From positions 28,088-92,087 of the forward strand of contig JAPLGD010000089.1 of the NCBI GenBank assembly GCA_026390345.1: 64,000 nt of DNA. Reading direction: 5' to 3'. The position numbers were made by a program, and so were the translations under genes. Positions 9,101 to 63,372 of the stretch are shown here, piece after piece; position 1 is the stretch's first letter; each line of letters opens with the position of its first letter. Source of the DNA: Candidatus Bipolaricaulota bacterium (GTDB lineage: Bacteria; Bipolaricaulota; Bipolaricaulia; UBA7950; UBA9294). The notes under the pieces were generated by a model. The model was not told the DNA's origin. It was given only the letters and a program-made list of their open reading frames with translations, and made no database searches.

Positions 9101-9362
9101 CCTTGCGCTCACCGCGGCGGACATCACGGCGGACCTCGCCGTCGGAAACGGGTGGGGCCTCGAGCTCGAGATCGACTACTCCTCCAACTCCTTCGATCTG
9201 GGCGACGTCTCGTACGGCGTGTTCAAGGACATCGCCGACTGCGTGCGCGTCGGCATCGAGCGGTCGTCAGGCGACGTCTGGCTCTACGTTTCCATCCTCG
9301 CCTTCCCCGAAGCCGTGCTCCGCTACGCGCCGACCAGCGCAAGCTTCGAGATCGGGGAGTGA
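6150..9362 (+). CDS. Single ORF fusing an LptF/LptG-family LPS export permease (aa 1-~375) to a complete LptD/OstA outer-membrane LPS-assembly protein (aa ~400-1070).
   Basis: The N-terminus MLRRCDRYILREALGPF has the LptF/G signature. Six TM helices follow, with a periplasmic beta-jellyroll between TM3 and TM4. After the last permease helix comes RGRWWRR + LPLTLILLLAVSLSVLG|TDA, which looks like a signal peptide with n, h and c regions. Next is an LptA/OstA-N jellyroll (VHLECDELFVADDGSTLHAVGSVRATF...). The LptD barrel follows: the conserved TTCDCC Cys pair, then SPLFPAFGSSSSRGWFVKWNVPFF...LDYYSKYSE, and a C-terminal Cys motif IADCVRVGIERS (compare E. coli SCCYAIRVGYERK). Confidence 0.75.
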   Translation: MLRRCDRYILREALGPFLLALAGLVLFILLNVILSLSDLMVDRGVSMTTLLRLVLLKIPSLLVVAVPMSALFATFLGLGRMGHDREVLALESLGIPLRRILLPLLLAAAFVGVADFALYNWLVPASEAAYQDALRQVIYRQGTPRITPNAFFKGQNDQFFYIRRFDESSGKLYDVVIYDTTGRLFPQAGTQVTMITADEGTWTAGAWTLSSGTVYGFDREGQLVFTATIESLVIPIEQGVAELVSHSRTPSEMGLAELRERITQARKNGQRVHEYIVESHLKLALPLATLVFVLLGGALSLAFLPANRAVGIVLGLLLVAVFQGFLWWTQTLGRRGAMDPAWAAWLPDLVFGVIGVYLYARVDRLATRDTRGRWWRRLPLTLILLLAVSLSVLGTDAFGPSVDSDAPEDGIGSGVREDNVGSVPVHLECDELFVADDGSTLHAVGSVRATFADSQLEADDLLVERVQSSSWRLSASGSVALLVPGTTELAGDSMIVEINGQSGEVRPRWAEADGLRGEVVFTNSEGKEKELFFRARRGEVSFDDKGEVSLLTAEQAEVTTCDCCGLALDRQPYSLKADRLRLYPDRLLVAYGLTARVSAVRVFWLPLYVQPLEETLDSPLFPAFGSSSSRGWFVKWNVPFFLSEAVYGTILLDYYSKYSEIGVGATLRYAAGGHEGRASAYILPSEVNDTKVEVSATDTVTLGANWQGVGRLEYKMDGDDEELSFSAKLRGTIGRADVSLLVSRIIDTTTTTTIEEKLPELSFSLPSQEVGPLSFRPTFFAGWYREEKEGESPEGRFRFRSQLESTVDAMTFAGFRIQPSATLQTSLYADAIGWEDVESIEVGASATRSGLELTWTTTFARGSSPFEFDETTTEHELTWTTKRSGPVDLTISGSFNSVDGPGLVRATADWDDWATWKVTANYNLTLARLSTLVVRGNWRDEHRKVAWRIPYDALDGEFSTASLDVSTQWKALSLSLENDLNLNTLALTAADITADLAVGNGWGLELEIDYSSNSFDLGDVSYGVFKDIADCVRVGIERSSGDVWLYVSILAFPEAVLRYAPTSASFEIGE

Positions 9363-16942: not shown

Positions 16943-18691
16943 ATGATGCGCACAGCGTATTGCGGCCGCTTGACCGCGGCGAACGTCGGAGAGTCGGTTC
17001 GGTTGGCTGGATGGGTCAACCGTCGACGGGATCTCGGCAAGATCACGTTCGTCGACCTTCGCGACCGCACCGGCCTCGTTCAACTCCTCTTCAGAAGCGA
17101 CGACGCCAACCTCCGAGACGCGCACACCCTGAATCGCGAGGACGTCATCGCCGTCCGCGGAACGGTCGCGAGACGGTCGGGGTCGAACATCAACCCCGAG
17201 ATGCCCACCGGAGAGATCGAGGTCCACGTCGACGAGCTTCAAATCCTCAACCGCTCGAAGACCCCCCCGTTTCTGATTGAGGGAGACGGCTCGGACACCA
17301 CCGAGGACACGCGTCTCCGGTATCGCTACGTCGACCTGCGGCGCGAGCGCGTTCAGAAGGCGCTTGAGCTGCGCCACCGCACGTTCCAGGCGACGCGGAG
17401 CTTCTTCGCGGAGCGCGGGTTCCTGGAAATCGACACGCCGTTCCTGACGAAGTCCACGCCTGAGGGCGCGCGCGACTTCCTGGTCCCGAGCCGGATGCAT
17501 CTGGGCTCCTTCTACGCGCTCCCGCAGTCGCCGCAGCTCTTCAAACAGCTGTTCATGGTGGGCGGCGTCGACCGCTACTTCCAGGTCGTGAAGTGCTTCC
17601 GTGACGAGGATCTGCGCGCCGACCGGCAGCCGGAGTTCACACAGCTCGACCTCGAGATCGCCTTCCCGTCGGGGACGGACGAGATCTACGAGCTGCTCGA
17701 GGGCGCCGTGGCCCGCGTATTCCACGAGGTCCTCGGCGTGAAGCTCGACCTTCCTTTCCCGCGGATCACCCACGCCGACGCGATGGCCCGGTTCGGAATC
17801 GACAAGCCGGACATGCGGTTCGGCGTGGAGATTCTGGACATCTCATCCCACGTCCGCGGCTCCGGCTTCCGCGTCTTCTCGGAGGCCGTCCAGAGCGGAG
17901 GGAGGGTGGCCGGCATCCTCGCTAAGGGATGCTCCCACTACTCGCGCGCCGCGCTCGACAAGCTGCAGGCGCTCGCGGTCGGGGCGGGCGCGAAAGGCCT
18001 TGTGTGGCTGAAGGTCGACGAGGGTGTGGCGTCCCCGATCGCCAAGAACCTGACGGAGAAGGAACTCCACGACATCGTCTCCGCCTTCGGCGCCGCGCCC
18101 GGAGACCTGATCCTCCTCCTCGCGGGAACAGGGATCGAGAAGCCGCTCGGCGAGTTGAGGCTCGCCGTCGCGCGCGAGGAATCGCTCGCCGAAGACGCGT
18201 GGCGGTTCCTCTGGGTCACGGACTTCCCGCTCTTCGAGCTCGACGAGGAAGGACACCTGACGAGCGCCCACCACATGTTCACATCTCCGCACGAGGATGA
18301 GATCGAGCGGATGGAGGCAGATCCTCTGCACGTCGGCTCGAACGCGTACGACCTCGTGCTGAACGGGACCGAGCTCGGCAGTGGGAGCATCCGAATCCAC
18401 TCCCGCGCCCTCCAAGAGAGGATCTTCCGCCTTGTCGGGATCTCAGAGGAGGACGCTCGCCAGCGGTTCGGTTGGTTCCTCGAGGCGCTCGACTACGGTG
18501 CGCCGCCGCACGGTGGGTTTGCTCTCGGGATCGACCGTCTTGTCATGTTGATGGCGCACGAGCAGTCGCTGCGCGACGTCATTGCGTTCCCAAAGACAGC
18601 GAACGGTATGTGCCCGCTCACCGAAGCGCCGATGCCGGCGGCGGCGAAGCAGCTCGAAGAACTGGGAATCGAGGTCACTCGAAGGCCATGA
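16943..18691 (+). CDS. aspS: Aspartyl-tRNA synthetase
   Basis: 582 aa with an N-terminal OB anticodon-binding domain, class II motifs ([18 protein letters not shown]; [14 protein letters not shown]) and a bacterial-type insertion domain. Confidence 0.95.
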
Positions 18692-19623
18692 GGCGCTCCG
18701 TCCTTCTGCTCTCCCTGGGACTCGTCTCGGCGCTGATCGTGGTTGCGATCCTGTTCACCGCGAGCGTGGAGCGGGTGACGTTCACGTCAGGACGCCCATT
18801 CGACGAGGACACCTCCGTCAAGCTACACCCCGTCGGGGGGGCGGGCACGGTGCCAGCGCCGCTTCGTCCGATCGACCTTGCCATCGCGTACGGGTCCGTC
18901 GGCCTCATCGTCGTTGCGGTCATTCTTCTCCTCCGGAAGAACGCCGGCGGTGCCTCGCCACGGAAGACCAACCAGTGGGCGAACATCGTCCTCCTTGCCA
19001 CTCTCGTGGCCGCGATCACCGTCGTCTTCCTCCAAGTGAACAAGCCCGACAAGGACGAAGGGTCGACGGCCGACGCGGTAGCGGCCAACCCGGACCTGAC
19101 CAACGAGGAGGCCGGCCCGGGCAAGTACCAGAACATCGACGAGCTGATGGGAACCGGGGGACGGGACACGGGCCGGGGGATGGCTCCAGCCTTCTTCCTG
19201 ATCACGGGGATCCTCGCCGTTGTGGCCGTCGGCCTCTCCATCTTCCTCATCGTCCTGCTTCTCCGACGGAAGCCCCGCGCTCGGGAGGAAGACCTCACCG
19301 AAGAGATCCTGGCGCCGGTTCGCGCCGCCGTCGCAGAGCTTCGCCTCGGCAGGGACCCGCGCAGCGTTGTTGAACACTGCTACCGACAGATGCTCCGCGC
19401 ACTCGCCGAGCGGTCGAGGGTGGATCCGGCCTGCCTGACGCCGCGGGAGTTCGTGACCGCCCTGGCGGGTGTCGGCCTCGACGGCGCGGCCATTGGCGAG
19501 CTATCGACCCTCTTTGAAGAGGTTCACTACGGCCACCGCCCGGAGGAAGCGCTGTCCGCCCTAGCCCTCCAGTGCATGACGGCGATCACGACCTCGTACC
19601 CCGCCCCCGAGGCAACCCCGTGA
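18688..19623 (+). CDS. Membrane protein with a C-terminal DUF4129 domain (MoxR-associated)
   Basis: Start ATG overlaps the aspS stop (ATGA). Several TM helices, then a DUF4129-like C-terminal region. Confidence 0.6.
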
Positions 19624-19634
19624 GCAAGAGGAAG

Positions 19635-20162
19635 ATGGAGTTCTCCTTCGTTGTGCTGGAACTCGCGGGGCTCCTTGCCCTTGCCCTCCTCGCCCTTTCG
19701 ATTCCCATGCGGCACGGAGCACGGTTCTGGGAGGCGGTCGCCGTCCTTCCCCAGATCGTTCTATGGTTTGTCCCGATTCTGTTCGCCCTGCCCGTTCTCC
19801 TCTTCTTCGCCAATCGGCTCCGCCCGGAGTGGGCGCCTCGCGCGACTCCGCGAGTCGAAGATGCCTCCGCCGGGACCCTGGCCCATCTCGTCGACGCGAT
19901 TCGACAGTCTCGATCGAGCCAGCTCGCACGATCCCGGGTCGCGAGCCAGCTCGTCCGGCTCGCTGTACGCATCGATGCGGAGCGGTTCGAGATGCACGAG
20001 GAAGAGGCGTGGACCCTGGTCCGCGAACGCTGTCGGAAGCTGGAGCCTGACCTGGCGAGCTTTCTGGAACAGGAGGACCTCGGGGCGTTGTCCGGCGCGG
20101 CGTTTCAATCCTATGTACGGAGAACCGTCGCGTTCCTGGAACGCGAGAGCGAGGAGGCCTAG
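19635..20162 (+). CDS. Hypothetical two-TM membrane protein within the MoxR module
   Basis: MEFSFVVLELAGLLALALLALS and a second helix, followed by a charged helical cytoplasmic domain. An alternative GTG start at 19620 overlaps the upstream stop. Confidence 0.45.
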   Translation: MEFSFVVLELAGLLALALLALSIPMRHGARFWEAVAVLPQIVLWFVPILFALPVLLFFANRLRPEWAPRATPRVEDASAGTLAHLVDAIRQSRSSQLARSRVASQLVRLAVRIDAERFEMHEEEAWTLVRERCRKLEPDLASFLEQEDLGALSGAAFQSYVRRTVAFLERESEEA

Positions 20163-20165
20163 ACG

Positions 20166-21119
20166 ATGATCCCCATCCCAAAAGTGGAGAAGACGGCACG
20201 CCGGATCGTGGATGAAGTCTCGAAGGCGGTGATCGGGAAGTACGACGTCCTCACGGAGGTCATGGCGACGATCCTCGCCGGCGGGCATATCCTGTTTGAG
20301 GACAATCCCGGACTCGCGAAGACCCTCATCGCACGGAGCTTCGCCCGCGTTCTCGGCGTCGACTTCCGCCGCATCCAGTTCACCCCGGACCTCCTGCCGA
20401 GCGACATCACCGGATCCCACATCTACGACCGCAACAGGAACGAGTTCATCGTCGCTCCCGGCCCAATCTTCGCTCACGTCATCCTCGCCGACGAAGTGAA
20501 CCGAGCCACTCCCAAGACGCAGTCGGCGATGCTCGAGGCGATGCAGGAGCTCCAGGTCTCGATCACCGGGGACACGCGGCCGCTCCCGAAGCCGTTCATC
20601 GTCATGGCGACCCAGAACCCGATCGAGTACGAGGGGACGTTCCCGCTTCCCGAGGCGCAACTCGACCGGTTCATGGTTCGCCTCAGCGTCGGGTACCCCG
20701 AGCCGCCGGAGGAGGCCGAGATCCTTCGACGTCGCGCGGAGCGAAAGGAAGAGGAGGTCAGCCTCTCCGCCATCTCCTCCGCCGAGGAGCTGCTCGAGAT
20801 GCAGCGTACGGTGGAGGACGTCGTCGTCGACGAGGACGTCCGCAACTACATCGTCTCCCTCGTCGGGCGCACGAGGAAGCACACGAGCGTCTACGTCGGG
20901 GCCAGCCCCCGCGGGTCGCTGGCGCTGTTCAAGTTGTCCCGAGCCTGGGCCGCGCTCTACGGTCGCGACTACGTCCTTCCCGACGACGTCAAGCGGTTTG
21001 CCGTGCCGGCGCTCGCCCACCGCTTGATCCTTCGACCGGAGTTCTGGAGCCGCCAGGCGTCGACGAGCGACGTGGTCCAGGGAATCGTCCAGGCCACTCC
21101 CGTTCCGAAGGTCTCCTAG
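20166..21119 (+). CDS. MoxR-family AAA+ ATPase
   Basis: Walker A (NPGLAKT), Walker B (ILADEVNRA) and the characteristic MoxR sensor and arginine-finger regions. 317 aa. Confidence 0.9.
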   Translation: MIPIPKVEKTARRIVDEVSKAVIGKYDVLTEVMATILAGGHILFEDNPGLAKTLIARSFARVLGVDFRRIQFTPDLLPSDITGSHIYDRNRNEFIVAPGPIFAHVILADEVNRATPKTQSAMLEAMQELQVSITGDTRPLPKPFIVMATQNPIEYEGTFPLPEAQLDRFMVRLSVGYPEPPEEAEILRRRAERKEEEVSLSAISSAEELLEMQRTVEDVVVDEDVRNYIVSLVGRTRKHTSVYVGASPRGSLALFKLSRAWAALYGRDYVLPDDVKRFAVPALAHRLILRPEFWSRQASTSDVVQGIVQATPVPKVS

Positions 21120-21123
21120 CACG

Positions 21124-22410
21124 ATGACCGATCCTCGGTACCCGATCGCCGTGTGCATCAGCGTTGGAATCATGATCGCTGCGCTTGTGACACGCAGCGC
21201 CGGCCTCTTCATGGCCGCGATTCCGGCCCTCGCGTACGCCGCGGCGCTCCTCATAGCGCGCCTGCAGCTCCCCCGCCCGGAGCTCGACATCACGAGGACT
21301 CCGTCCTCCCGCCGAGTGAGCTCCGGCGACGACGTTCGCTACGCGGTCACCGTGAAGAACTGCGGTGAGCCCCTGCCGCTCGTCGGGGTCTTGGACGTTC
21401 TGACGACCGACGAGCCCGTCCAGGAGGGAGAGCCCTCTTTCCTCGGCCCCATCGGACGTGACGAGGACGTTCGCCTCTCCTACACGGTCCGACCGAGTCG
21501 CGGAATCCACTTCCAGGACCATGTGACCGTAGTGTCTTGGACTCGCTGTACTCTCGCGTTTCAGGAGCACGAAGTCGTCTGCTCAACGTACGTCTCCGCG
21601 ATCCCGGAGATCGAGAAGCTCCCGCCCTTGGTCCTTGCACCCCGTCGTACGCACGCCTTCGCCGGCCCCATCATGGCTCGCGCTGCGGGGCCGGGCGTCG
21701 ACTTCTTCGGATGCCGCGCCTACGCGCCCGGCGACGACGTTCGAAGGATCAACTGGCGTGCCCTCGCCCGCACCGACCGCCTCATCGTCAACGAGTACGA
21801 GCAGGAGAGGATGGCGGACGTCACCGTGATCCTCGACGTCCGCGCCCAGGCTCACGTGGAGGCCGGAGGTCGCGACACGTTCGAACCGGCGTGCCGCGCG
21901 GCCGCCAGCCTCGCCGACCACTTGATCCGTCAGGGAAACCGCGTCGGATTCCTTCTCTACGGCCAGTCGATCGACTGGATCCAGCCTGCGGGAGGGCGCT
22001 TCCACCTCGAACGCATCTTGGGCTCCATCGTCCGTGCCAAGCCGGTGCGAAGCTTTGCGTTTGAGGATCTTGCGGGCATTCCGGCCTCGATCTTCCCGTC
22101 GGGGTCGCAGCTGATCCTCCTCTCCTCCCTGCCGAGGGACGAGGACTACGAGGTGCCGATTCAGCTCGCCGCCCGGGGCTACTCCGTCCTTGCTGTCTAC
22201 ATGAACAGCGAGAGGCTGCAGGCTTCCGTCGAGCAAGCCGACGACGCGCTGGTTCTTGCGCTACGCATTCGTTCCCTGCGACGGGACACGGCCATCCGCC
22301 AGATGCGCCGTGCTGGCGTGTACGTCCTGTCGTGGGACACCGAGGAGCCCCTCTCCGTCGCCCTTCATCGGGCACGCCTGGACCGAGGCGGAAAGAGGAG
22401 GCGCTCGTGA
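21124..22410 (+). CDS. DUF58-domain protein (vWA-like partner of MoxR) with an N-terminal TM hairpin
   Basis: GxRxYxPGD motif (GCRAYAPGDDVRRINWRALART) and EYEQER, typical of DUF58. Confidence 0.8.
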   Translation: MTDPRYPIAVCISVGIMIAALVTRSAGLFMAAIPALAYAAALLIARLQLPRPELDITRTPSSRRVSSGDDVRYAVTVKNCGEPLPLVGVLDVLTTDEPVQEGEPSFLGPIGRDEDVRLSYTVRPSRGIHFQDHVTVVSWTRCTLAFQEHEVVCSTYVSAIPEIEKLPPLVLAPRRTHAFAGPIMARAAGPGVDFFGCRAYAPGDDVRRINWRALARTDRLIVNEYEQERMADVTVILDVRAQAHVEAGGRDTFEPACRAAASLADHLIRQGNRVGFLLYGQSIDWIQPAGGRFHLERILGSIVRAKPVRSFAFEDLAGIPASIFPSGSQLILLSSLPRDEDYEVPIQLAARGYSVLAVYMNSERLQASVEQADDALVLALRIRSLRRDTAIRQMRRAGVYVLSWDTEEPLSVALHRARLDRGGKRRRS

Positions 22411-23018
22411 GACTCGCTGTGCTCGTCCTCGTGACGCTCTCCGCCGGTCTCGCCGTGGCGGGGGCCGCGCTCGTCGCCCCCTGGACGTTCGCCCTCCCCG
22501 CGGGCCTCATCGCAGGACTATGGATCACCCTCGCCGCCTGGCGCCCCTCAAGCCGGCTCCACGTGATTCCGATGCTGCTCTGCGTCGGGACCTGTGCATT
22601 TCTGACCGTCGGCGTCGAGTCGCGCATTCTCGGCCTTGTCGGCCTTCCCCTCGCTCTCTTCGCCTGGGACGCGAGCTTCACGAGACGCACGATGTCGCGC
22701 TTCGCCAAAGTCGTGCAGCCCCACGTCGTCCTACGGTACGCGGCTGCCATGGCGGGGATCTGCGGAGCCGCCGTTGGCGTCGCCGTCGGCGGAAACATCC
22801 TTCAGTTGCGGCTCACCTTCCCGGTCGCGCTTGGCGCCTCCATCGGACTCCTCGGCCTCACCATCGCGGTCCTCTGGGCCGCGCGCCGATCGTCGGCCGT
22901 CGTCCCCGTCGTCCTGGAGAAGAAGGAAGGCGAAGAAGGAAAAGAGGAAGGGGACGCTGCCGCCGAGCGGGAGGCGTCCCCTTCCTACCAACCCCGAGGA
23001 TTCTCAAACCCTCACTAG
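22407..23018 (+). CDS. Hypothetical polytopic membrane protein with an acidic Glu/Lys-rich C-terminus
   Basis: GTG start overlapping the DUF58 stop (GTGA). Six hydrophobic helices. Confidence 0.45.
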   Translation: MRLAVLVLVTLSAGLAVAGAALVAPWTFALPAGLIAGLWITLAAWRPSSRLHVIPMLLCVGTCAFLTVGVESRILGLVGLPLALFAWDASFTRRTMSRFAKVVQPHVVLRYAAAMAGICGAAVGVAVGGNILQLRLTFPVALGASIGLLGLTIAVLWAARRSSAVVPVVLEKKEGEEGKEEGDAAAEREASPSYQPRGFSNPH

Positions 23019-23716
23019 GGCAAGCCTAACACGCCGCAGATGGTGGCTCGGAACCTGACGCCCGCGATGTAGCCTGCGAGCTCTCCCGCCAGTCGACTCT
23101 GCGACACAGCGTACCCCGCATACAACGACAGGCGGTACGTGAACACCAACTCCGTTCCTGCTTCCACGGCCGTCCACTGGGCAAACACGGTCCGCGTTGG
23201 GGCGTCGATACCAGAGAGAAAGGTCCCGCCTGGGTCTTCGATGGCCGCTTGCCATCCCTGGGGAATCTGTTCTTCGAAGCCGAATCCGCCTGGAATCGGT
23301 TCGACCGCACGGACAGTCACGACCACGAGGAGCGTGCCGTCGTCTTGCGCCACGACATCCCGCACGGCGAACGCGGGAACCGCTCCCACCACAACGCCCT
23401 TGCGGCAGGTCTCACGGCGCCCGGTGTCGTCCGCGATGGTGAGCTGCACTTCGTAGTAACCCGCGGCAGCGTAGGAGTACGTCGCCATGGGGTCGCGCGT
23501 CTCGACGTCCGCGACGTCGTCCCCGTTCCAGTCCCAGCGGTACGTGTACGTCCCCCCGGTCAGACAGGGCTCGCACACAGCGAAGCTGACGGCCTCCCCC
23601 ACCCCGGGGTTGTACGTAGACGGCGTGAAGTCGGCCTTCCACGCAGCCGCCGCCATCCACGGAACCGCGACGGCGATCGCCGTCGCGACAATCCATACGC
23701 GTCGTATGTTCCTCAT
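23015..23716 (-). CDS. Secreted protein with one PKD-like domain and one E-x-IP-x-GW module
   Basis: Signal peptide; YRWDWNGDD...YSYAAAGYYEVQLT (PKD-like); EEQIPQGWQAAIEDPGG...LVFTYRLSL. It is the last gene of the minus-strand operon at 23.0-29.0 kb. Confidence 0.55.
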   Translation of the reverse strand: MRNIRRVWIVATAIAVAVPWMAAAAWKADFTPSTYNPGVGEAVSFAVCEPCLTGGTYTYRWDWNGDDVADVETRDPMATYSYAAAGYYEVQLTIADDTGRRETCRKGVVVGAVPAFAVRDVVAQDDGTLLVVVTVRAVEPIPGGFGFEEQIPQGWQAAIEDPGGTFLSGIDAPTRTVFAQWTAVEAGTELVFTYRLSLYAGYAVSQSRLAGELAGYIAGVRFRATICGVLGLP

Positions 23717-23761
23717 GGCCCCCTCCCTCTTCATCACGCCCGGCGGCGACGGCCCGCTCCC

Positions 23762-25957
23762 CTACGGGAGCGGGTCGTGCACCGAGCTTCCAGTAAGCCA
23801 ATACGCAATCAAGTCATTGAGGGTCGACAGGTCGATCTTGCCGTTGTTCGTGTACGGAACCGACGCCCCGGACAGCCAGAGCGACACGGCGTACTGGATC
23901 TGGTCGAAGGTGATCACCTCTCTCAGGCACAAGTCGATCGCCGACGTCTCAACGTTCCACCGGGAGATCACGATGGGAATGGACAGGTACTTCTGGAGCC
24001 ACACCCGATCCTCGCCGGTGATCGTCTGCAGCAGACGCGGCGACGAGCTGCCGACGGAGCCCCGGATCGCCACAGGCTCGCTTTCCGCCTTCGGCGAACT
24101 CGTCGGAGCCGTCAGCGTGTACCGAATCTCCCTCTGGGAGTCCGGCCCCGTGCCGGTGAACTTTTCGACAAACAACCACTCGGCGGTCGAACCGCTCTGC
24201 CGAAGGGCCGCGCCGTCCGTCTCCACGGAGCGGAACGTCCAGCCCGCCGGCAGCGTCTCGCTCACGGCAAGCCCGTTCAGCGTCGTGTTCGCGCGGAGCG
24301 CCAGCGTGATCGTGACCGTGGCTCCCTGGACCGTTCGATCCTCGGGCAGGCACGTCTCGATCGTCCGCACCGCCGTCACGCTGGTCACAGCGGTGACCGT
24401 CCGCTCGAGGGTCGTTCGCGCGCCCATGTCGTCCGTGACGTAGAGCGTGATGTCGTAGTCCCCAGGTTTCATGAACGTGAAGGACTCATCGGGTGCGTCC
24501 GTCGCAACATCCACGACTCCATCCGACTCGAAATCCCACTCGTAGCGGACAACCCGTCCATCTAGGTCGTACGACGAGCTCGCGTCAAGGATGACCTCGA
24601 CGCCCGCACGCGGCTGGGCGACCGCGATCATGAACTCGGCCTCGAGAACAGCGAAGCTCGGCGTTGGAGCCGCGTTACCGATCACGATCTCCTGCTCGTA
24701 CGGCTTCGACACAAGCCCCCGATCATCCGCGACGACGAGCGTCACGGCATACGTGCCGCTCTCGTCGAAGCGGTGGACGGGGTCCCTAGCGTCCGCCGTC
24801 GTCCCATCTCCGAACTCCCACGCCCAGGCGGCCACAGTCTCGTCGCCATCGATGTCGCGCGATGCGTCGTAGAACTCGACGGGGTCGGCCGTGGTCGGCG
24901 CCGCCGGCTCAAACTCGAAGCCAGCCTCCGGCGCGCGGTTCGGCATCACGACGTTCAGTGAGTCCGCCGCGATGTCCACCCTATGCTCCACCTTGCGGAA
25001 GTCCCTGTAGGTCGCCGTCGAACCATCGTCCGTCAGGAGAGTTCCGCTCTCCGTCGCCCGAAGCTTCATGTCGATGCGCAGGATCTGGCCGAGCTCTATC
25101 TGTTCGAAGGCCCAGCGCACCGTCGTGCTACCGTCCATCTCCATCCGCACCTGGCTTGCGGCCGGTGCAGAGGTCATCCACTCGAGTCCTGCGGGAATGC
25201 GCTTCTCCACGACCACATCGGACGCCGCAACCTTCACAAACGCGTGGTTGACGACGGATTCAAGCGCCGCGTCCGACGGGCGAACCGCAAACGCCCCTCC
25301 CGATGTCGCGGCGAGCTCCTCCAGGAGCGCCCGATTGATCAACGTGCCGATTCCGACGCATGTGACCTGGATCCCGGTCTCGACCGCGATCTTGCCCTCC
25401 GACGCCGCGTCGGATCCGATATTGGACTGCCCGTCCGAGAAGAGGACGATGAGCATCGTCGCATCTGGACGAGCCGTCTGGGAGAGCTCCCGGCGCGCGA
25501 GCTGAAGCGCCGTGCCGAGCGCCGACTTGTCGCCGCCCGTGAGGCCTCCGATGGCCGACTTGATCTCTGCCCTGCTCTTGGAGAGCGGCAAGGCTACACG
25601 CGCCGTCGCCGCGTACGACAGCACGCCGACGCGGTCGTTCGAACCCATGCGATCGACGAGGTCGAGGGCGAAGAGCTTCGCCTCCGCCAGCTCGGCCGTG
25701 GCCGACGTATCAATGACCAGCATGCAGTCCACGGGGAAGCGTTCCCCGGTTGCGCCGATGCCCTGAAGCACGAGCGAGACGTTCGTCGTCTCCGGCGCCT
25801 GTCCCATTCCTGCTACGAAGATCTGAGACGGATCGACCGTCTGGAAGATCTGGATTGTCCCCTCACCTAGTGCCACTCCCGAACCGGCAACTAGGCCCAC
25901 GAAGAGAAGGAAGACGGCGAGGGGAACCCCCCTCGCCGTGTTGGTGGTCGTTCTCAT
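23762..25957 (-). CDS. Secreted multidomain protein: vWA domain, two PKD-like domains, an E-x-LP-x-GW module, and a novel conserved C-terminal domain ending IAYWLTGSSVHDPLP
   Basis: Signal peptide. vWA MIDAS region (DCMLVIDTSATA...SDGQSN), PKD regions (WAWEFGDGTTADARDPVHRF...; YEWDFESDG...), an E-x-LP-x-GW module, and a C-terminal domain that also occurs in the next gene. Confidence 0.7.
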   Translation of the reverse strand: MRTTTNTARGVPLAVFLLFVGLVAGSGVALGEGTIQIFQTVDPSQIFVAGMGQAPETTNVSLVLQGIGATGERFPVDCMLVIDTSATAELAEAKLFALDLVDRMGSNDRVGVLSYAATARVALPLSKSRAEIKSAIGGLTGGDKSALGTALQLARRELSQTARPDATMLIVLFSDGQSNIGSDAASEGKIAVETGIQVTCVGIGTLINRALLEELAATSGGAFAVRPSDAALESVVNHAFVKVAASDVVVEKRIPAGLEWMTSAPAASQVRMEMDGSTTVRWAFEQIELGQILRIDMKLRATESGTLLTDDGSTATYRDFRKVEHRVDIAADSLNVVMPNRAPEAGFEFEPAAPTTADPVEFYDASRDIDGDETVAAWAWEFGDGTTADARDPVHRFDESGTYAVTLVVADDRGLVSKPYEQEIVIGNAAPTPSFAVLEAEFMIAVAQPRAGVEVILDASSSYDLDGRVVRYEWDFESDGVVDVATDAPDESFTFMKPGDYDITLYVTDDMGARTTLERTVTAVTSVTAVRTIETCLPEDRTVQGATVTITLALRANTTLNGLAVSETLPAGWTFRSVETDGAALRQSGSTAEWLFVEKFTGTGPDSQREIRYTLTAPTSSPKAESEPVAIRGSVGSSSPRLLQTITGEDRVWLQKYLSIPIVISRWNVETSAIDLCLREVITFDQIQYAVSLWLSGASVPYTNNGKIDLSTLNDLIAYWLTGSSVHDPLP

Positions 25958-25995
25958 GACACATCATCTCCCTCGACGGAGTCCCCGGCGCGCGG

Positions 25996-28209
25996 CTAGC
26001 CGTCGCACACCGAGGCATCCGGATCGCACGGGCCGTCGGGGATCACGGGGAGCGGATCGCAGATGTTCGTCCCCGTGAGCCAGTAGGCGATGATCTCCTT
26101 CAGCATGTGGTACCCAACCGTCTCGCCGCACGTCCACGGCACGACCTCGTCCTCCAACCAGAAGGCAATGGCCCGCTGGACTTGCTGGAACGAGATCCTG
26201 TCGGACAGCGTAATGTCCAGACGATCGTGGTCCACATCCCAGCGGGAAATCGCCACGAGGACGGACAAGCAGTCGCTGATGTCGACACCGCTGTCTCCGG
26301 TCACCGGCGTCTCCATGCACGGCAGAGCCGAGTCCACCACGCCGTAGAGATCGTTGCTGCTCGCGTAGCACGGATCGCTCGCGGCCATCTCGATCATCTC
26401 GGTCTGCGGAACCTCGACCTGGTAGATGATGGTCTTCGTCACCCCGGCCGGCAGCTTCGTAGGCCACACCCACTCGTTGCGGGAGCGCTTGTAGGTGAGT
26501 CCGTCATTCTCGATCGGAATGACCTTCCACCCCGTCGGCAGCTCTTCCTTGAGTCCAACGCCGTAGAGGTCCTGGTCAGCCCAGATCTCGACCTTCACGG
26601 TGAAGGTGCTCCCCGCCTTGTCGCCGCCCGGCCCGTAGTAGTTGAGCAGGACGTTGTTGCACGGCACCGGGGTCGCGATCGTGCGGACGGCCGAGATGCG
26701 GGCCGGCGGCACGAGCGGCAGAGGCAGGTCGACCGGCGTGCACGTATACGCGTACGCCGACAGCTCCTTCATCTGCTCGAGGCTGATCGTCGAACCCTGC
26801 GTCCACGGCACGACCTCGTCGTTCTGCCACATCTCGAGCGCCCTCTTCAGCTGCTGAGGGTCGATCTTCTGCGACAGCCGGAGGTCGATCGTGTCCTCCG
26901 TGTCCAGACCGACACGAGGAACCAGGTGAGCGATCGCTTCCTTCAGAGGCAGGGCCGTGGAGACCTCGATCTTCGCGTCTCCTTCAACCGGCAGCTCCAT
27001 GAACGGCGTCATCGCCTGGAACGTCCCCGTGAGCGTAAAGCACACCGGGAGCGTCGTCGCGATCAGCTGATCGCTCGGCGGCACCGAGAGCTCGTAGGAG
27101 ATGATCTTCGTCGAGCCCGCTCGGATCTGGTCGACGAACACCCACTGGACCGACGCGCGCTTGAACGCAGCACCGGCGTTCTCGAGCGGTTTGATCTTCC
27201 AGCCCACCGGGAGGTTCTCCTGCAGGCCGACGCCGGCCACATCCATCTGCGGCTCCATCCGCACGACAACCAGGAATGTGCTCCCGGGGAGGGCGGCCGA
27301 GGTGGAGATCGTCCGGGTGACCTTCACCGCAAGATCTCCGATCGACACGGAGAGCGTCGATCGCGCCGTCGCACCCTCATTGTCCGTCGCGCGGACCGTT
27401 ACGCTCTTCGCGCCGCTCGTCGCGTACGTGTAACTGACCGTAGGCTCCGTGGTCGTCGAGTCGAACAGGCCGTCGCCGTTGAAATCCCACTCGTACTTGG
27501 CGATCTGGCCGTCCGGGTCGAACGACGAAGACGCATCGAACGTCACCGGCTGGTTGATGCGCAGATTCGACGGAGAGACCGTGAACCCCACTTGTGGAGG
27601 CTCGTTCGGCGTGCCCGCCACGATGATCGGGTCGAGCAGGTTCAGTGTGACCTCGGTCGGACTCGCCAGCTGCCCGGACAAGAACACAACCCGGGTGATG
27701 CCGGCCGAGAACTGCGGGAACAGACTCAGCGAGAACTCGGTGCCGAGCGGTCCCAGCACCATGCCGTCTCCCTTTCCCGCATTCCAGGTCCACGAGACGC
27801 TGCCCGTTGGTGGCGTGAGCTGCCACTTGTCCATCAGGTCGTTGTCGTCCTTCACGAGGAAGTTGGCCCCCGTCGGGACGCCGGACAGCGTCATCGTCGT
27901 CGAACCGGCCGTGCCGCCCGTGGCACCCAGGATGACGAACAGCGAAAGCCCCCCCCCTGCGGAGTCCTTGTACAGGAACATGACCGCGGTGTTGGGCTTC
28001 TCCAGCCCCGTTGCGGCCTGCTGGTTCGTGTACTTGTAGAACGCGACCGCGTCGGCCGCGTTGGCCAGCGGCTCGATCTGAACTTGCGTTTCCCCTTGAC
28101 TGACAGTGTAGAAGCCGTCTCCCTGTGCCAAGCCCGTCGTCGGAAGTAGGAGAACGACCACCGCCAGAAGGAGGAAAAGGCCAAGAATACTGACCTTTCG
28201 CACCTTCAT
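25996..28209 (-). CDS. Secreted multidomain protein: PKD-like domain, two E-x-LP-x-GW modules, and two copies of the novel C-terminal-type domain, the last ending IAYWLTGTNICDPLPVIPDGPCDPDASVCDG
   Basis: Start at Met60 of the listed ORF (MKVRKVSILGLFLLLAVVVLL signal peptide; perfect AAAGGAGGT Shine-Dalgarno). YEWDFNGDGLFD PKD motif. Two internal modules, each with the LP-x-GW core. The second domain copy is nearly identical in pattern to the C-terminus of the 23762..25957 protein. Confidence 0.7.
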   Translation of the reverse strand: MKVRKVSILGLFLLLAVVVLLLPTTGLAQGDGFYTVSQGETQVQIEPLANAADAVAFYKYTNQQAATGLEKPNTAVMFLYKDSAGGGLSLFVILGATGGTAGSTTMTLSGVPTGANFLVKDDNDLMDKWQLTPPTGSVSWTWNAGKGDGMVLGPLGTEFSLSLFPQFSAGITRVVFLSGQLASPTEVTLNLLDPIIVAGTPNEPPQVGFTVSPSNLRINQPVTFDASSSFDPDGQIAKYEWDFNGDGLFDSTTTEPTVSYTYATSGAKSVTVRATDNEGATARSTLSVSIGDLAVKVTRTISTSAALPGSTFLVVVRMEPQMDVAGVGLQENLPVGWKIKPLENAGAAFKRASVQWVFVDQIRAGSTKIISYELSVPPSDQLIATTLPVCFTLTGTFQAMTPFMELPVEGDAKIEVSTALPLKEAIAHLVPRVGLDTEDTIDLRLSQKIDPQQLKRALEMWQNDEVVPWTQGSTISLEQMKELSAYAYTCTPVDLPLPLVPPARISAVRTIATPVPCNNVLLNYYGPGGDKAGSTFTVKVEIWADQDLYGVGLKEELPTGWKVIPIENDGLTYKRSRNEWVWPTKLPAGVTKTIIYQVEVPQTEMIEMAASDPCYASSNDLYGVVDSALPCMETPVTGDSGVDISDCLSVLVAISRWDVDHDRLDITLSDRISFQQVQRAIAFWLEDEVVPWTCGETVGYHMLKEIIAYWLTGTNICDPLPVIPDGPCDPDASVCDG

Positions 28210-28348
28210 TGCTACCTCCTTTGTCGGCGTTTTCATCTTCCCTTCGTGTTCAAAGCAGGAATGCAACATCACTCTAGCAGATTCCCCCCCCAGTAGTCTG
28301 TAACACCGATTACGCTGCAATCTGCCTCCTTCCCTGTCTCCATCGTCA

Positions 28349-28975
28349 TTACAGTGCCACAGCGATCTGGTAGAGGGCTGCATCAATCGCTTCCTTTGCG
28401 GCTTCCACAGGGTCGGCGGTGAGGAGCGAGAACAGCGGACGATCCTCGCACGTCACCGATGTGGTGAACTCGACGTCGCCTCTCGGGCTGAAAACCGACG
28501 CGAACATCCCGACCGTGGCCACCTTGTCGATGCCAAACAGAAGACCCAGCGGTGAGATGAGGATCTGCAATGTGGTATCGAGGAACGCCGTCGCTCCCAG
28601 AAGGACGAGGGAGCGTTCGGGGCGGTATGAGATCCGACTCTCCCACTCGACGATTCGAAGGATAATCACGTGGTCCGCGTTCAGCGCCTCGGCGAGGCGC
28701 TGCATGCCTTCGACCGTCATGCTGTTGCCGACGTACGACCCCGTCAGGCGTTGGGCGAGCATCAAATCCCCTTGGGTGTTGACGTCGCACCCGGCCACGA
28801 CCGAGCAGCGCTGACTGGCGTAGTTCTTGAGGATCTCCAAGTCCGCGGTCGGCACGGCCGCCGCAGCCTGCAAGAACACGGCAACCTTCGGCCGAGCGGA
28901 GCATCCCAGAGCGACCGTCGCGACGATCACGACGGCGACGACCCACCTTGCGGTACGGCGCGTTCGATCGGACAT
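28349..28975 (-). CDS. Hypothetical lipoprotein (lipobox LGC)
   Basis: VVAVVIVATVALG|CSA signal/lipobox; ~185-aa mature protein of unknown family. It is the first gene of the minus-strand operon. Confidence 0.5.
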   Translation of the reverse strand: MSDRTRRTARWVVAVVIVATVALGCSARPKVAVFLQAAAAVPTADLEILKNYASQRCSVVAGCDVNTQGDLMLAQRLTGSYVGNSMTVEGMQRLAEALNADHVIILRIVEWESRISYRPERSLVLLGATAFLDTTLQILISPLGLLFGIDKVATVGMFASVFSPRGDVEFTTSVTCEDRPLFSLLTADPVEAAKEAIDAALYQIAVAL

Positions 28976-29136
28976 TCTCACTCCCCACCACCCATTGTGA
29001 AGCCTAGTAGCATGTGAGGGGAGTCTAGCTCTGCGAGAAACCGCGAAGAAGGAACGGTGTCGAAGCGTTCGTCCGACTTTGTCTAGGGGGTCCGGGACAG
29101 ATGTCCGGGCGACGGGCTCCGAATGCCGCGATCCGG

Positions 29137-29586
29137 TTAGATCTCCAATTCCTTCGGACCCTGCGCCGCGTGGGGATGCGCGGGACCCGCATAGATCTTG
29201 AGCTTGCGAAGCATCTGCCGGCCGAGGATCGACTTCGGAAGCATCCGGCGCACGGCCTCCCGGACGGGGAGCTCGGGGTGGCGCTCGATGAGCCGGCGGT
29301 AGGACATCGACTTCAGCCCACCCATGTACCCCGAATGTCGCTGGTAAAGCTTGTCATCCCACTTCTTCCCGGTGAGCTCAATCCGCTCGGCATTGATCAC
29401 GACAACGTAGTCCCCGGTGTCGACGTGGGGCGTGTAGATCGGCTTGTGCTTCCCTTGAAGGATGACGGCGATCTCCGAGGCGAGCCGACCCAGTCGCTTC
29501 CCGTCGGCGTTGACCACGTACCACTCGCGATCCCAGGTCTTCCCCATCTCTTCGTTCTTTGCCAGAAACGTCCGTTGCCGTTGCAT
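29137..29586 (-). CDS. rplM: 50S ribosomal protein L13
   Basis: [40 protein letters not shown] matches the L13 N-terminus. Start at Met11 of the listed ORF. Confidence 0.9.
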
Positions 29587-29647
29587 GTTGGAACTCCTCC
29601 AAGGTCTGCGGTTCAAGGGTGGATTGTAGCTCTAGGAGTCGACCCTT

Positions 29648-30913
29648 TCAAAGCGTCGTTCCGATTGTCTCTTCCGGTCGTGGACCGTACGAGACGATTC
29701 CCACCCGAATCTCAAGCTTCTTCTCGATCAGCCGCACGTAGTTCGCCGCCGCCTTGGGAAGCGACTCGACCGACGTGGGATTCCCCAGCGCCTCCCGCCA
29801 GCCGCGCACGGCCTCATACACCGGCTCACAGCGCGCCAGCCGCTCTCCCGAAAGCGGATACCGCTCCGCGCTCCGCCCGCCGATACGGTACTCGGTGCAG
29901 ACGCGGATCTCATCCAACTCGTTCAGGACGTCGAGCTTCGTCAGCGCGATCTCGGTGATTCCGTTCAGCGTCGCGGCGTAGCGCAACGCCACGAGGTCAA
30001 GCCACCCGCACCGGCGCGGACGGCCGGTCGTCGTTCCGTACTCCCCGCCGCGCTCCCGAAGGCCCGCTCCGACTGGATTCTCGAGCTCCGTCGGGAACGG
30101 ACCCTCGCCCACCCTGGTCAGGTACGCCTTCGCGACGCCCACCCGCCGGTCGATCGACGGAAGCGGGATGCCGAGGGACGGTCCGATCCCGCCGAACGTC
30201 GTCGTCGACGACGTCACGAACGGGTAGGTTCCGAAGTCGACGTCGAGGAGCGTCCCTTGCGCACCCTCGAAGAGAACCCGCTTCCCTTTCCGCAGGGCTT
30301 CGTCCACCACCGGGGACACGTCGCAGATCCCTTCGCGAAGCTCCTTCCCGGCCGCGAGCAGGAGCTCAGCCAATGCTCCGGCGGAGTACGCCTGCATCTC
30401 TTCGCTCGCCGGCCACTCGCGCTTCAAGAGGTCAAGACGCCACGCAATCCGGCTTCGCAGGGTCTCCGGATCGAGGAGGTCCCCGGCGCGCACTCCGACG
30501 TGGGCCACCTTGTCGCGATACGCCGGAGCGATTCCGCGCCGCGTCGTTCCAAACCGGGCGCCGCTCCCCTCGAGCTCCTCCAAGGTACGGTGGTACGGAA
30601 GGATAAGGTGTGCGTTCTCGGCGAGGAGCACCCGAGGCGTCTCGCCGATGTGGTCGGCCACGGCGCGGATCTCCTTCGAGAGGAGCTCAATGTCGACGAC
30701 CATTCCTGCTGCCAGAACGGAGGTCACGCCGGGGTAGAACGCACCGGCCGGGATCAGATGCGTGCCAAACTTGACTCCGCGATCGATCAGCGTGTGCCCG
30801 GCGTTGGGTCCGCCGTTGAAGCGGACGACCATGTCCGCCTCGCGCGCCAACAGATGCGTAATCTTGCCCTTGCCCTCATCGCCCCACTGCAGTCCGAGAA
30901 CCGCCGTCGACAT
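29648..30913 (-). CDS. purA: Adenylosuccinate synthetase
   Basis: QWGDEGKGK P-loop, GPNAGHT and the full 421-aa PurA architecture. Confidence 0.95.
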   Translation of the reverse strand: MSTAVLGLQWGDEGKGKITHLLAREADMVVRFNGGPNAGHTLIDRGVKFGTHLIPAGAFYPGVTSVLAAGMVVDIELLSKEIRAVADHIGETPRVLLAENAHLILPYHRTLEELEGSGARFGTTRRGIAPAYRDKVAHVGVRAGDLLDPETLRSRIAWRLDLLKREWPASEEMQAYSAGALAELLLAAGKELREGICDVSPVVDEALRKGKRVLFEGAQGTLLDVDFGTYPFVTSSTTTFGGIGPSLGIPLPSIDRRVGVAKAYLTRVGEGPFPTELENPVGAGLRERGGEYGTTTGRPRRCGWLDLVALRYAATLNGITEIALTKLDVLNELDEIRVCTEYRIGGRSAERYPLSGERLARCEPVYEAVRGWREALGNPTSVESLPKAAANYVRLIEKKLEIRVGIVSYGPRPEETIGTTL

Positions 30914-62949: not shown

Positions 62950-63372
62950 TCCGCGCCTCCTTGCTTCAGTCGTCCGCACTATCGATTGAACTGAACACCA
63001 GATTCCCTGGCCTTCATCGTAAACCACCCACTGGGAGAGCGAATCCGGAACTCCTGTTCAGTCATTCTCCGCACCTCTGATCTAGTAGCTCCTCTAATGG
63101 GGTCGGGCAATTATAGGCCCCTCCGCACAAATGGTCTGTAATGCCCGTCACGCACCCGAGTGGATGCGCTCTTCCGGAAGACGCCCGACTCCACACGTGC
63201 CGCCACGGCGCGGCCGCGGGCCTCCGCCATGTCCCCGGTTGGTCCATCGCCCCTCTCCTGGGCGCGCGAAGCTCGCCCAAGACGGGAAGCTCGCCCAAGA
63301 GAGTGAGGGCGGTAACGCTTCTCCGCCGCGCGTCACCGCCCTCTTCCTCAACTGCTTCGGATGGCCTGTCTT

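What the first reader, a model, noticed from the sequence alone, without database searches (positions are those of the whole stretch)
23015..28975. Operon of secreted proteins sharing an unassigned C-terminal domain (ISRW...F.Q.Q.A..WL....VP[YW]T...IAYWLTG...DPLP) and a recurring E-x-LP-x-GW module
Four co-directional genes (lipoprotein, 738-aa protein, 731-aa protein, 233-aa protein) sit 25-140 nt apart. The three larger proteins combine vWA and PKD domains with a ~110-aa module bearing a strict E-x-[LI]P-x-GW core; there are four copies in total. The two big proteins end in a ~80-aa domain that is highly similar between them. It occurs twice in the 738-aa protein, where the terminal copy is followed by a Cys-rich tail (PDGPCDPDASVCDG). 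Other cargo in this genome carries the canonical T9SS CTD, so this looks like a distinct and possibly undescribed C-terminal sorting, anchoring or cell-surface-binding domain. The operon also encodes a dedicated lipoprotein.
Basis: seen in the sequence. Interest (0 to 1): 0.7.

Follow-up and report, generated by a model that had tools for sequence, protein, structure and literature searches.

The report
Dockerin-like domain in conserved Bipolaricaulota operon
Four neighbouring genes for exported proteins, conserved across the uncultured phylum Bipolaricaulota, carry a small helical domain that no public family library models; it looks like a calcium-site-degenerate relative of dockerin/EF-hand docking modules, not a new secretion or anchoring signal.

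The parts
28349..28981 (-). Gene A: 210-aa exported protein of an orphan family. It has an N-terminal signal sequence and a lipobox-like A-L-G-C. A very conserved hydrophobic segment spans about residues 121-165.
   Evidence: ORF. No Pfam, NCBIfam or PDB match. Orthologues lie upstream of B in 33 loci. The lipobox Cys is not conserved.
25996..28209 (-). Gene B: 737 aa. Domain order: signal peptide, orphan beta-rich N-domain, PKD, module 1, helical domain 1, module 2, helical domain 2, Cys tail.
   Evidence: More than 120 orthologues at 66-96% identity, named only 'PKD domain-containing protein'.
27613..28119 (-). B N-terminal domain (residues 31-199), with no family assignment.
   Evidence: No Pfam or PDB profile match. 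It is conserved in B-like proteins.
27337..27612 (-). B PKD domain (residues 200-291).
   Evidence: PKD_4 E=5.5e-15.
26962..27336 (-). B module 1 (residues 292-416): NEW3/DUF11-like beta-sandwich. The ENLPVGW motif is at 27199-27219.
26716..26961 (-). B helical domain 1 (residues 417-498). This is the internal copy and it ends in ...VDLPLP.
   Evidence: 44% identical to B CTD2, E=6e-18. Detected by an HMM hit.
26278..26715 (-). B module 2 (residues 499-644). The EELPTGW motif is at 26527-26547.
   Evidence: DUF11, 27.8 bits against a cut-off of 24.6.
26047..26277 (-). B helical domain 2 (residues 645-721). It ends in ...ICDPLP.
   Evidence: AF2 model with pLDDT above 95 in the core. Internal duplication shown.
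25999..26046 (-). B Cys-rich tail, VIPDGPCDPDASVCDG (residues 722-737).
   Evidence: Conserved pattern xxPxGPCxPxxxxC in orthologues. Low pLDDT of 54-65.
23762..25957 (-). Gene C: 731 aa. Domain order: signal peptide, VWA (MIDAS-like DxSxT), beta-sandwich, PKD, PKD, module, helical domain.
   Evidence: VWA E=2.9e-20 and PKD_4 E=3.9e-30.
25235..25726 (-). C VWA domain (residues 78-241).
   Evidence: PF00092, 73.6 bits.
23996..24385 (-). C module (residues 525-654). The ETLPAGW motif is at 24239-24259.
   Evidence: DUF11 25.8 bits; NEW3 19 bits.
23765..23995 (-). C helical domain (residues 655-731). It ends in ...IAYWLTGSSVHDPLP followed by the stop codon.
   Evidence: in alignment A1, which includes all 16 database fragments, the final PLP is invariant.
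23015..23737 (-). Gene D: signal peptide, PKD, module (EQIPQGW at 23252-23272). It has no helical domain.
   Evidence: PKD E=4e-10. Module homology to B module 1, E=5e-5. Orthologues are present in 49 loci.

Best explanation
A-B-C-D is a set of Sec-exported cell-envelope proteins. It is conserved as a syntenic block across Bipolaricaulota.

B and C are modular, adhesin- or scaffold-like proteins built from Ig-like domains. Each NEW3/DUF11-type 'LP-x-GW' beta-sandwich is followed by an ~80-aa helical domain. That domain is a tandem duplication of a 22-residue loop-helix unit. This is the construction plan of a dockerin (an EF-hand-derived module), but the calcium-ligand positions are degenerate. 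The beta-sandwich plus helical domain form a fixed dyad that resembles the X-module-dockerin dyad of type II cellulosomal dockerins.

Shown here: the conservation, the domain architecture, the internal duplication, the confident fold, the absence of a family model, and the fact that the domain is not confined to C-termini.

Inferred: the helical domain is a protein-protein docking surface. Through it B (two dyads), C (one dyad plus a VWA head), D (module only) and possibly A would assemble into one envelope or surface complex. Under this reading the domain is neither a secretion nor an anchoring signal.
For: Conservation and synteny
- The block ileS-purA-rplM-A-B-C-D recurs in 51 species-level genomes, nearly all Bipolaricaulota/Acetothermia.
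- 41 of the 51 loci hold exactly three copies of the helical domain. The other ten are mostly cut by contig ends.
- B orthologues are 66-96% identical among the 120 best hits.

Fold and duplication
- The AF2 model built on 75 sequences has mean pLDDT 87. The three helices score above 95.
- The two halves of the domain are homologous: hhalign probability 95.5%, E=1.5e-8, over 22 columns.

Resemblance to dockerin and EF-hand
- Foldseek against the PDB returns only two hits, and both are dockerins: the X-Doc of CipA (5g5d_B) and 2y3n_D.
- The family profile aligns onto the EF-hand loops of ALG-2, E about 0.08-0.16.
- Distant family members keep canonical DxNxNGxIxxxE loops, for example P0143 with DRNDNGLIDDDE.
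- Those members also give sub-threshold Pfam hits: EF-hand_7 at E=0.033 and EF-hand_6 at E=0.098.

The dyad
- The domain follows a NEW3, DUF11 or CARDB beta-sandwich in most of the proteins examined; a few distant hits have the reverse order.
- Some proteins carry four such dyads in a row (P0071, P0074).

Possible interface
- The last ~17 residues (LIAYWLTG..V.DPLP) are nearly invariant in sequences that are otherwise 52-90% identical. That is more conservation than a fold alone needs.

Other carriers
- An S8 peptidase from Acetothermia also carries the dyad.
Against: - There is no sequence match to Dockerin_1. hhalign against one true dockerin gives nothing.
- The EF-hand matches are all below threshold.
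- The calcium-ligand positions in the window's copies are not canonical, and position 12 is Gln.
- No cohesin or other partner was identified.
- The model of the dyad as a whole was poor, with pLDDT 46 from a single sequence. Cis packing versus trans binding is therefore unresolved.
- No expression or localisation data were found.
Confidence: 0.5

Rival explanations
1. One reading: the domain is a new C-terminal sorting, anchoring or cell-surface-binding signal. A dedicated machinery would recognise it, by analogy with the T9SS CTD, LPXTG or PEP-CTERM.
For: - C orthologues all end exactly at ...DPLP followed by the stop codon.
- B orthologues all carry a conserved Cys-rich tail after DPLP.
- B, C and D have signal peptides but no recognisable anchor.
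- No family model covers the domain.
Against: - An internal copy in B is followed by another module, and the same ...PLP ending occurs there.
- Only B-like, C-like and S8-peptidase-type architectures carry the full domain among 1.84 billion representatives, as far as the visible part shows.
- The loci hold three copies each and no extra cargo.
- In other phyla the domain lies upstream of sub-threshold T9SS CTD matches.
- There is no transmembrane or basic tail.
- The neighbouring genes examined are housekeeping genes or belong to a MoxR operon. None encodes a processing enzyme.
Confidence: 0.08
2. The helical domain is only a cis-acting structural cap or stabiliser of the preceding beta-sandwich. 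It would be a degenerate Ca-binding EF-hand remnant with no binding partner. B, C and D would then be independent adhesins.
For: - The domain is immediately adjacent to a beta-sandwich in most of the proteins examined.
- X-modules and dockerins are known to pack tightly against each other. This is established knowledge of type II X-Doc structures such as 5G5D, which is the top Foldseek hit.
- No partner was found.
Against: - The C-terminal helix and the DPLP end are nearly invariant across divergent orthologues.
- The numbers of dyads are conserved across the phylum: two in B, one in C, none in D.
- D keeps the module but never the helical domain. The module therefore does not need the helical domain in order to fold.
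Confidence: 0.27
3. The locus encodes ligand-binding adhesins. The VWA MIDAS site, the PKD domains and the NEW3 module (a glycosidase-associated domain) would bind polysaccharide or host or particle surfaces. The helical domain would be the ligand-binding element.
For: - VWA with a DxSxT...T...D pattern, plus PKD domains.
- The NEW3 family is named after its association with alpha-galactosidases (Pfam description).
- Distant carriers include glycosidase-like and peptidase proteins.
Against: - B is unusually conserved for an adhesin, at 60-96% identity across species-level genomes.
- No carbohydrate-binding family matched.
- The helical domain has no similarity to known carbohydrate-binding modules.
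Confidence: 0.15

Closest known systems
Type II X-module-dockerin dyad of cellulosomes (e.g. C. thermocellum CipA X-Doc, PDB 5G5D; B. cellulosolvens 2Y3N)
   Same: - An Ig-like beta-sandwich is followed directly by a small helical domain.
- That domain is built from a tandem duplication of a ~22-residue loop-helix unit.
- These entries are the only Foldseek PDB hits.
- The setting is extracellular, in modular proteins that also include peptidases.
   Different: - There is no significant sequence or structure score.
- The Ca-binding ligands are degenerate.
- An extra N-terminal short helix and a beta-hairpin are present.
- No cohesin is encoded in the operon.
- The organism is not cellulolytic, and the carrier proteins are not glycoside hydrolases.
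EF-hand pair (e.g. ALG-2/PDCD6)
   Same: - A helix-loop-helix with a 12-residue loop.
- An Ile/Val sits at loop position 8.
- The profile aligns exactly on the EF loops.
- Distant members have canonical DxNxNGxIxxxE loops.
   Different: - All matches are sub-threshold.
- In the window's copies position 12 is Gln, and positions 3 and 5 are Thr/Ser or Cys/Arg.
- The second loop (VP-x-T-x-G-x-x-[IV]) is not an EF loop.
NEW3 / NPCBM_assoc (PF10633), DUF11 (PF01345), CARDB (PF07705) beta-sandwich domains
   Same: - The LP-x-GW module matches DUF11 above Pfam's threshold in B and C.
- 15 of 45 module-family members match NEW3, best E=1.7e-9, and 12 of 45 match DUF11.
   Different: - This is a divergent subfamily with a strict G-x-G-[LV]-x-E-x-[LI]-P-x-G-W core.
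- It has an obligatory downstream helical domain, except in D.
- The window's own modules are at or below threshold for NEW3.
T9SS C-terminal sorting domains (Por_Secre_tail, CHU_C)
   Same: Both are located at the C-terminus of large, PKD-rich exported proteins. T9SS-type CTDs occur in the same window.
   Different: - The T9SS CTD is a beta-sandwich that is strictly terminal and found on many cargo proteins.
- This domain is helical, can be internal, and is carried by two or three protein families.
- In other phyla it lies upstream of sub-threshold T9SS CTD matches.
MoxR-DUF58-VWA (Bat-like) systems
   Same: A MoxR AAA+ gene and a DUF58 gene lie next to a VWA protein (C).
   Different: - The MoxR operon is convergent with A-D, not co-transcribed.
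- C is exported.
- The adjacency is lost in several genomes (L006, L015, L026, L030).
- The VWA match to BatA scores 34.5 bits against a cut-off of 380.

Membership tests
Dockerin (PF00404-type, cellulosomal) | Tandem duplication of a ~22-residue loop-helix (F-hand) segment | tested here: met
   hhalign of the first half against the second half of the family alignment gives probability 95.5%, E=1.5e-8, over 22 aligned columns.
Dockerin (PF00404-type, cellulosomal) | Canonical Ca2+-binding loop (D-x-[DN]-x-[DN]-G-x-[IV]-x-x-x-[DE]) in both segments | tested here: not met
   The window's first loops read D-I-T-L-S-D-R-I-S-F-Q-Q (B CTD2) and D-L-C-L-R-E-V-I-T-F-D-Q (C). The second loop of B CTD2 reads P-W-T-C-G-E-T-V-G-Y-H-M. 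Only distant family members have canonical first loops.
Dockerin (PF00404-type, cellulosomal) | Significant match to the Dockerin_1 profile or to a dockerin sequence | tested here: not met
   No Pfam hit even at E up to 10. hhalign against a true dockerin gives probability 0.14%.
Dockerin (PF00404-type, cellulosomal) | Significant structural superposition on solved dockerins | tested here: inconclusive
Dockerin (PF00404-type, cellulosomal) | A cohesin partner that binds it | not testable with these tools
   No Cohesin Pfam match in A-D. No multimer prediction or binding assay was available.
EF-hand | Match to EF-hand profiles above the curated threshold | tested here: not met
   EF-hand_7 scores 15.0 bits against 30, and EF-hand_6 scores 12-13 bits against 25, in distant members only. 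PDB EF-hand proteins match at E=0.08-0.16.
NEW3/DUF11/CARDB beta-sandwich (for the LP-x-GW module) | Pfam match above the gathering threshold | tested here: met
   DUF11 scores 27.8 bits (B) and 25.8 bits (C) against a cut-off of 24.6. Across the module family, 15 of 45 members hit NEW3 (best E=1.7e-9) and 12 of 45 hit DUF11. The match is marginal for the window's own copies.
T9SS C-terminal sorting domain | Match to Por_Secre_tail or CHU_C models at the extreme C-terminus | tested here: not met
   No such hit in A-D. Two other window proteins have these hits.
T9SS C-terminal sorting domain | Carried by many unrelated cargo proteins of one genome, always in terminal position | tested here: not met
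   One copy is internal in B. The strong matches seen among 1.84 billion representatives are B-like, C-like or of the S8-peptidase-type group (output was cut in the middle). Each locus holds three copies. Whole genomes could not be scanned.
Sortase/exosortase-type signals (LPXTG, PEP-CTERM, PGF-CTERM) | Short motif followed by a hydrophobic helix and a basic tail; a processing enzyme encoded nearby | tested here: not met
   The proteins end in ...HDPLP and ...SVCDG, with no hydrophobic stretch. The window neighbours examined are L13, PurA, IleRS, the MoxR operon and AspRS.
Bacterial lipoprotein (protein A) | Lipobox with an invariant Cys at +1 | tested here: not met
   The window has A-L-G-C. 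In the aligned orthologues that retain the N-terminus this column holds other residues (for example, cleavage-region sequences read ...VFGQRQK and ...GAVGQR), so the Cys is not conserved.
MoxR-VWA (Bat-like) system | The VWA protein is co-transcribed and strictly co-occurs with MoxR and DUF58 | tested here: not met
   The orientation is convergent. The adjacency is missing in L006, L015, L026 and L030.

The most novel reading that the evidence does not exclude
The dyad of a NEW3-type beta-sandwich and a duplicated loop-helix domain could be a calcium-independent, non-cellulosomal docking system of the cohesin-dockerin kind. Through it B, C, D and dyad-bearing peptidases would self-assemble into the outer sheath or surface layer of Bipolaricaulota, a phylum whose envelope architecture is unresolved. 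The same un-modelled domain would serve as a general docking module in haloarchaea, Aerophobetes and other lineages.
Probability: 0.2. Interest if true: 0.65.

Novelty: new variant of a known kind. Interest (0 to 1): 0.4.

Why it matters
Bipolaricaulota/Acetothermia are uncultured and widespread. The one closed genome left the cell-envelope type undecided, and no adhesins were reported for it (PMC6092417).

This operon is among the better-conserved exported-protein loci of the phylum, yet it is annotated only as "PKD domain-containing protein". Defining the helical domain would achieve three things:
- It would give databases a missing family model. The domain also occurs in haloarchaeal, Aerophobetes and other secreted proteins.
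- It would point to candidate envelope building blocks for this phylum.
- If docking is confirmed, it would add a small Ca-independent dockerin-like module to the protein-assembly toolbox.

It does not reveal a new secretion pathway.

Tried and rejected
Searches and predictions that gave nothing useful
- Direct Pfam and NCBIfam scans of the isolated helical domains found nothing, even at E up to 10.
- phmmer of module plus domain against PDB sequences found nothing.
- Single-sequence AF2 of the C module plus domain gave pLDDT 46 and was unusable.
- Word-indexed homologue searches with the short domain, or with a 53-sequence profile, returned only fragments. The exhaustive representative search and a full-length B+C query were needed instead.
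- The afdb50 fold library was unavailable.
- hhalign against a single true dockerin gave no signal.
- Protein A had no Pfam or PDB match, individually or as a profile. My impression that its N-terminal half resembles LpoB/CsgG-type lipoprotein domains comes from memory only and is untested.
- The B N-terminal domain had no match.
- An Rfam scan of 22800-29700 found nothing.
- The promoter/terminator scan was at background level. The one strong hairpin lies inside the C coding region.
- Literature searches found no paper on these proteins.

Readings rejected
- WW-domain hits of the module profile (E=0.03-1) come from the LP-x-GW...W pattern only and are treated as spurious.
- A functional link to the adjacent MoxR operon is rejected. 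The orientation is convergent, the adjacency is not universal, and C is exported.
- DPLP as a terminal recognition motif is rejected. The same ...PLP ending closes the internal copy.
Full report
**What is there**

Four minus-strand ORFs lie head to tail:
- A, 28349-28981, 210 aa.
- B, 25996-28209, 737 aa from MKVRKV.
- C, 23762-25957, 731 aa.
- D, 23015-23737, 240 aa.

The gaps between them are 139, 38 and 24 nt. Each protein starts with a signal-peptide-like hydrophobic segment.

Pfam assigns the following:
- B: one PKD domain, plus a marginal DUF11 match (27.8 bits against a cut-off of 24.6).
- C: a VWA domain, two PKD domains and a marginal DUF11 match (25.8 bits).
- D: one PKD domain.
- A: nothing.

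NCBIfam adds nothing specific.

The motif E-x-[LI]P-x-GW occurs four times in the six-frame translation of the whole window. All four are in B, C and D. Codon-shuffled windows give a mean of 0.07.

The ~80-aa domain is present three times. B CTD2 and C CTD are 40% identical (E=1.5e-21). The internal copy B CTD1 and B CTD2 are 44% identical (E=6e-18).

Minor corrections apply. B is 737 aa, not 738. Only C has a VWA domain.

**Organism and conservation**

Short database fragments that match the C-terminal domain come from Candidatus Bipolaricaulia/Acetothermia. In the alignment of these with the window's copies, the final PLP is invariant.

A scan of one genome per GTDB species found 51 loci. 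Almost all are titled Bipolaricaulota or Acetothermia, or carry placeholder names such as 'uncultured Thermotogae'.

tblastn of the window's proteins against these loci shows one conserved block. It runs ileS-purA-rplM-A-B-C-D. The convergent genes (TM protein)-DUF58-MoxR-X-DUF4129 and then aspS usually follow. The identities of the neighbouring genes were confirmed with Pfam.

B is the best-conserved member, at 60-96% identity. Its 120 best orthologues are 66-96% identical and are named only 'PKD domain-containing protein'. C is more variable, at 31-89%.

41 of the 51 loci contain exactly three copies of the helical domain. The other ten are mostly cut by contig ends.

The MoxR cluster is absent between D and aspS in several genomes (L006, L015, L026, L030), and it is convergent with A-D. 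I do not treat it as part of the system.

**The LP-x-GW module**

Isolated module sequences from the window score just under threshold for NEW3/NPCBM_assoc and DUF11.

I collected 45 diverse modules from related proteins. Of these, 15 match NEW3 (best E=1.7e-9), 12 match DUF11 and 5 match bMG10. The module is therefore a divergent member of the well-known NEW3/DUF11/CARDB Ig-like beta-sandwich group.

Weak hits of its profile to WW domains reflect the LP-x-GW...W pattern only.

**The helical domain**

No Pfam or NCBIfam model covers it. This holds for the window's proteins and for distant carriers.

An exhaustive HMMER search of 1.84 billion representative proteins with a 19-sequence profile found only 139 proteins at E of 1e-3 or better. 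I compared the domain order of these hits by BLASTP; the middle of that output (about P0060-P0068) was cut off.
- The strong, full-length matches seen are mostly of two architectures. One is B-like (N-domain, PKD, module, domain, module, domain). The other is C-like (VWA, beta-sandwich, one to three PKD, module, domain).
- A third group of about 920-990-aa proteins has the order module, domain, module. One of them is named an S8 peptidase of Acetothermia.
- The weak matches cover only the second half of the profile. They reveal a wider ~50-residue motif, I..EIQ.AI.WW..G..VP.TGG.TI.L..IQ.LI..W..G..V. From their composition I judge many of its carriers to be haloarchaeal. It also occurs in an Aerophobetes S8 peptidase and in other secreted proteins.
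- In those proteins it again follows a CARDB- or NEW3-type beta-sandwich. In several of them it is followed by sub-threshold matches to T9SS sorting-domain models (P0095, P0147, P0152, P0145, P0149).
- Two proteins carry four module-domain dyads in a row.

**Fold and relationships**

With a 75-sequence alignment, AlphaFold2 gave a confident model of B CTD2 plus tail. Mean pLDDT is 87, and it exceeds 95 across the core.

The model contains a short helix, a beta-hairpin-containing loop and a 12-residue helix. A second loop and a 13-residue helix follow. The Cys tail is poorly defined.

The structure searches gave no significant match:
- Foldseek against the PDB returns only two hits, both dockerins. 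One is the X-Doc dyad of CipA. Their E-values of 3 and 8 are not significant.

The sequence comparisons are all sub-threshold:
- The family profile picks EF-hand proteins (ALG-2) at E about 0.1, and the alignment falls exactly on the EF loops.
- Distant family members have canonical loops such as DRNDNGLIDDDE.
- Those members give sub-threshold EF-hand_6/7 hits.
- A comparison with one true dockerin sequence shows nothing.

The two halves of the domain are homologous to each other: hhalign probability 95.5%, E=1.5e-8, over 22 columns. This tandem 22-residue loop-helix duplication is the defining construction of dockerins.

In the window's copies the calcium-ligand positions are degenerate, and position 12 is an invariant Gln.

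I conclude that the domain is a remote, calcium-site-degenerate relative or analogue of the dockerin/EF-hand-pair fold. The resemblance is consistent across independent tests. None of those tests is significant on its own.

**Why it is not a sorting signal**

1. One copy is internal, and it ends with the same ...PLP sequence.
2. Only two or three protein architectures carry it.
3. Elsewhere it lies upstream of sub-threshold T9SS sorting-domain matches.
4. There is no hydrophobic or basic tail.
5. The neighbouring genes examined include no sortase-, rhomboid- or exosortase-like gene.

D keeps the module but never the helical domain.

**Protein A**

The window's A has a lipobox-like A-L-G-C. The Cys is missing from most orthologues, so lipidation is not a conserved property.

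A has no detectable relatives outside this synteny. It contains a strikingly conserved hydrophobic stretch, PERSL.LLGAT.FL...LQ.L.SPLGLLFG, whose meaning is unknown.

**Mechanism (inferred)**

The dyad of a beta-sandwich and a duplicated loop-helix domain resembles the X-module-dockerin dyad. The last helix and the DPLP end are nearly invariant. The numbers of dyads are conserved: two in B, one in C, a module only in D. Together these features fit a docking role that assembles B, C, D and perhaps A into one envelope complex, with the VWA domain of C as an adhesive head.

The published closed genome of this phylum left open whether the envelope is monoderm or diderm. It reported no adhesins (PMC6092417).

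The main rival is that the helical domain is only a cis cap on its beta-sandwich.

**Verdict**

This is a real, conserved, phylum-typical operon. The 'module' is a known kind of domain. The 'C-terminal domain' is un-modelled in Pfam-A and NCBIfam, but it is best seen as a new variant of the dockerin/EF-hand kind, not a new sorting system. Interest is moderate.

Noticed in passing
window 54352-57378 (-) and 59317-63027 (-): Two very large exported proteins. One is 1008 aa, with about 10 PKD repeats and a Por_Secre_tail T9SS-type CTD (29.9 bits against a cut-off of 27). The other is 1236 aa, with a He_PIG domain and a sub-threshold CHU_C match (22.1 bits against 27). T9SS-type sorting domains are unexpected in a phylum reported to lack LPS genes and to have an undecided envelope type (PMC6092417).
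   Followed up: partly
window 6150-9362 (+): A 1070-aa ORF whose first 361 residues are a full LptF/LptG permease domain (E=9.6e-85). The remaining ~700 residues are unassigned. The published Acetothermia genome was reported to lack LPS genes.
   Followed up: no
window 28349-28981 (-), residues ~121-165 of protein A: An almost invariant hydrophobic segment, PERSL.LLGAT.FL...LQ.L.SPLGLLFG, in an orphan protein found only upstream of B. It could be membrane-embedded. No family or PDB match was found.
   Followed up: partly
window 18472-23018 (+): An operon of DUF4129, an unassigned 196-aa protein, a MoxR AAA+ ATPase, DUF58 and a 228-aa membrane protein. It is convergent with gene D, and the stop codons overlap at 23015-23018. 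The 196-aa and 228-aa proteins are detectable in only 7 and 4 of the 51 related loci.
   Followed up: partly
window 28982-29616 (-): rplM (ribosomal protein L13) is followed directly by gene A. rpsI, its usual operon partner, is not there, and the 155-nt gap is too short for it. The same arrangement recurs across the related loci.
   Followed up: no
window 25914-25939 (-): An 11-bp GC-rich hairpin with a 4-nt loop lies inside the signal-peptide coding region of gene C, 18 nt after its start codon. The terminator scan flagged it, but no proper T tract follows.
   Followed up: no
proteins P0071 and P0074 (search hits, unknown organism): Proteins of ~1130 aa with four consecutive LP-x-GW module plus helical-domain dyads. 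In these the first loop is Cys-rich (IAHI.GDGCG....C.VDP).
   Followed up: no
proteins P0073 (Acetothermia) and P0147/P0275 (Aerophobetes): S8 subtilases carry the same module plus helical-domain dyads. The Aerophobetes protein also has sub-threshold matches to T9SS sorting-domain models at its C-terminus.
   Followed up: partly
module profile A6 (window modules at 26962-27336, 26278-26715, 23996-24385, 23018-23383): The module profile gives sub-threshold hits to WW domains (E=0.03-1) through the shared LP-x-GW...W pattern. I regard this as chance resemblance within a beta-sandwich strand pair.
   Followed up: partly
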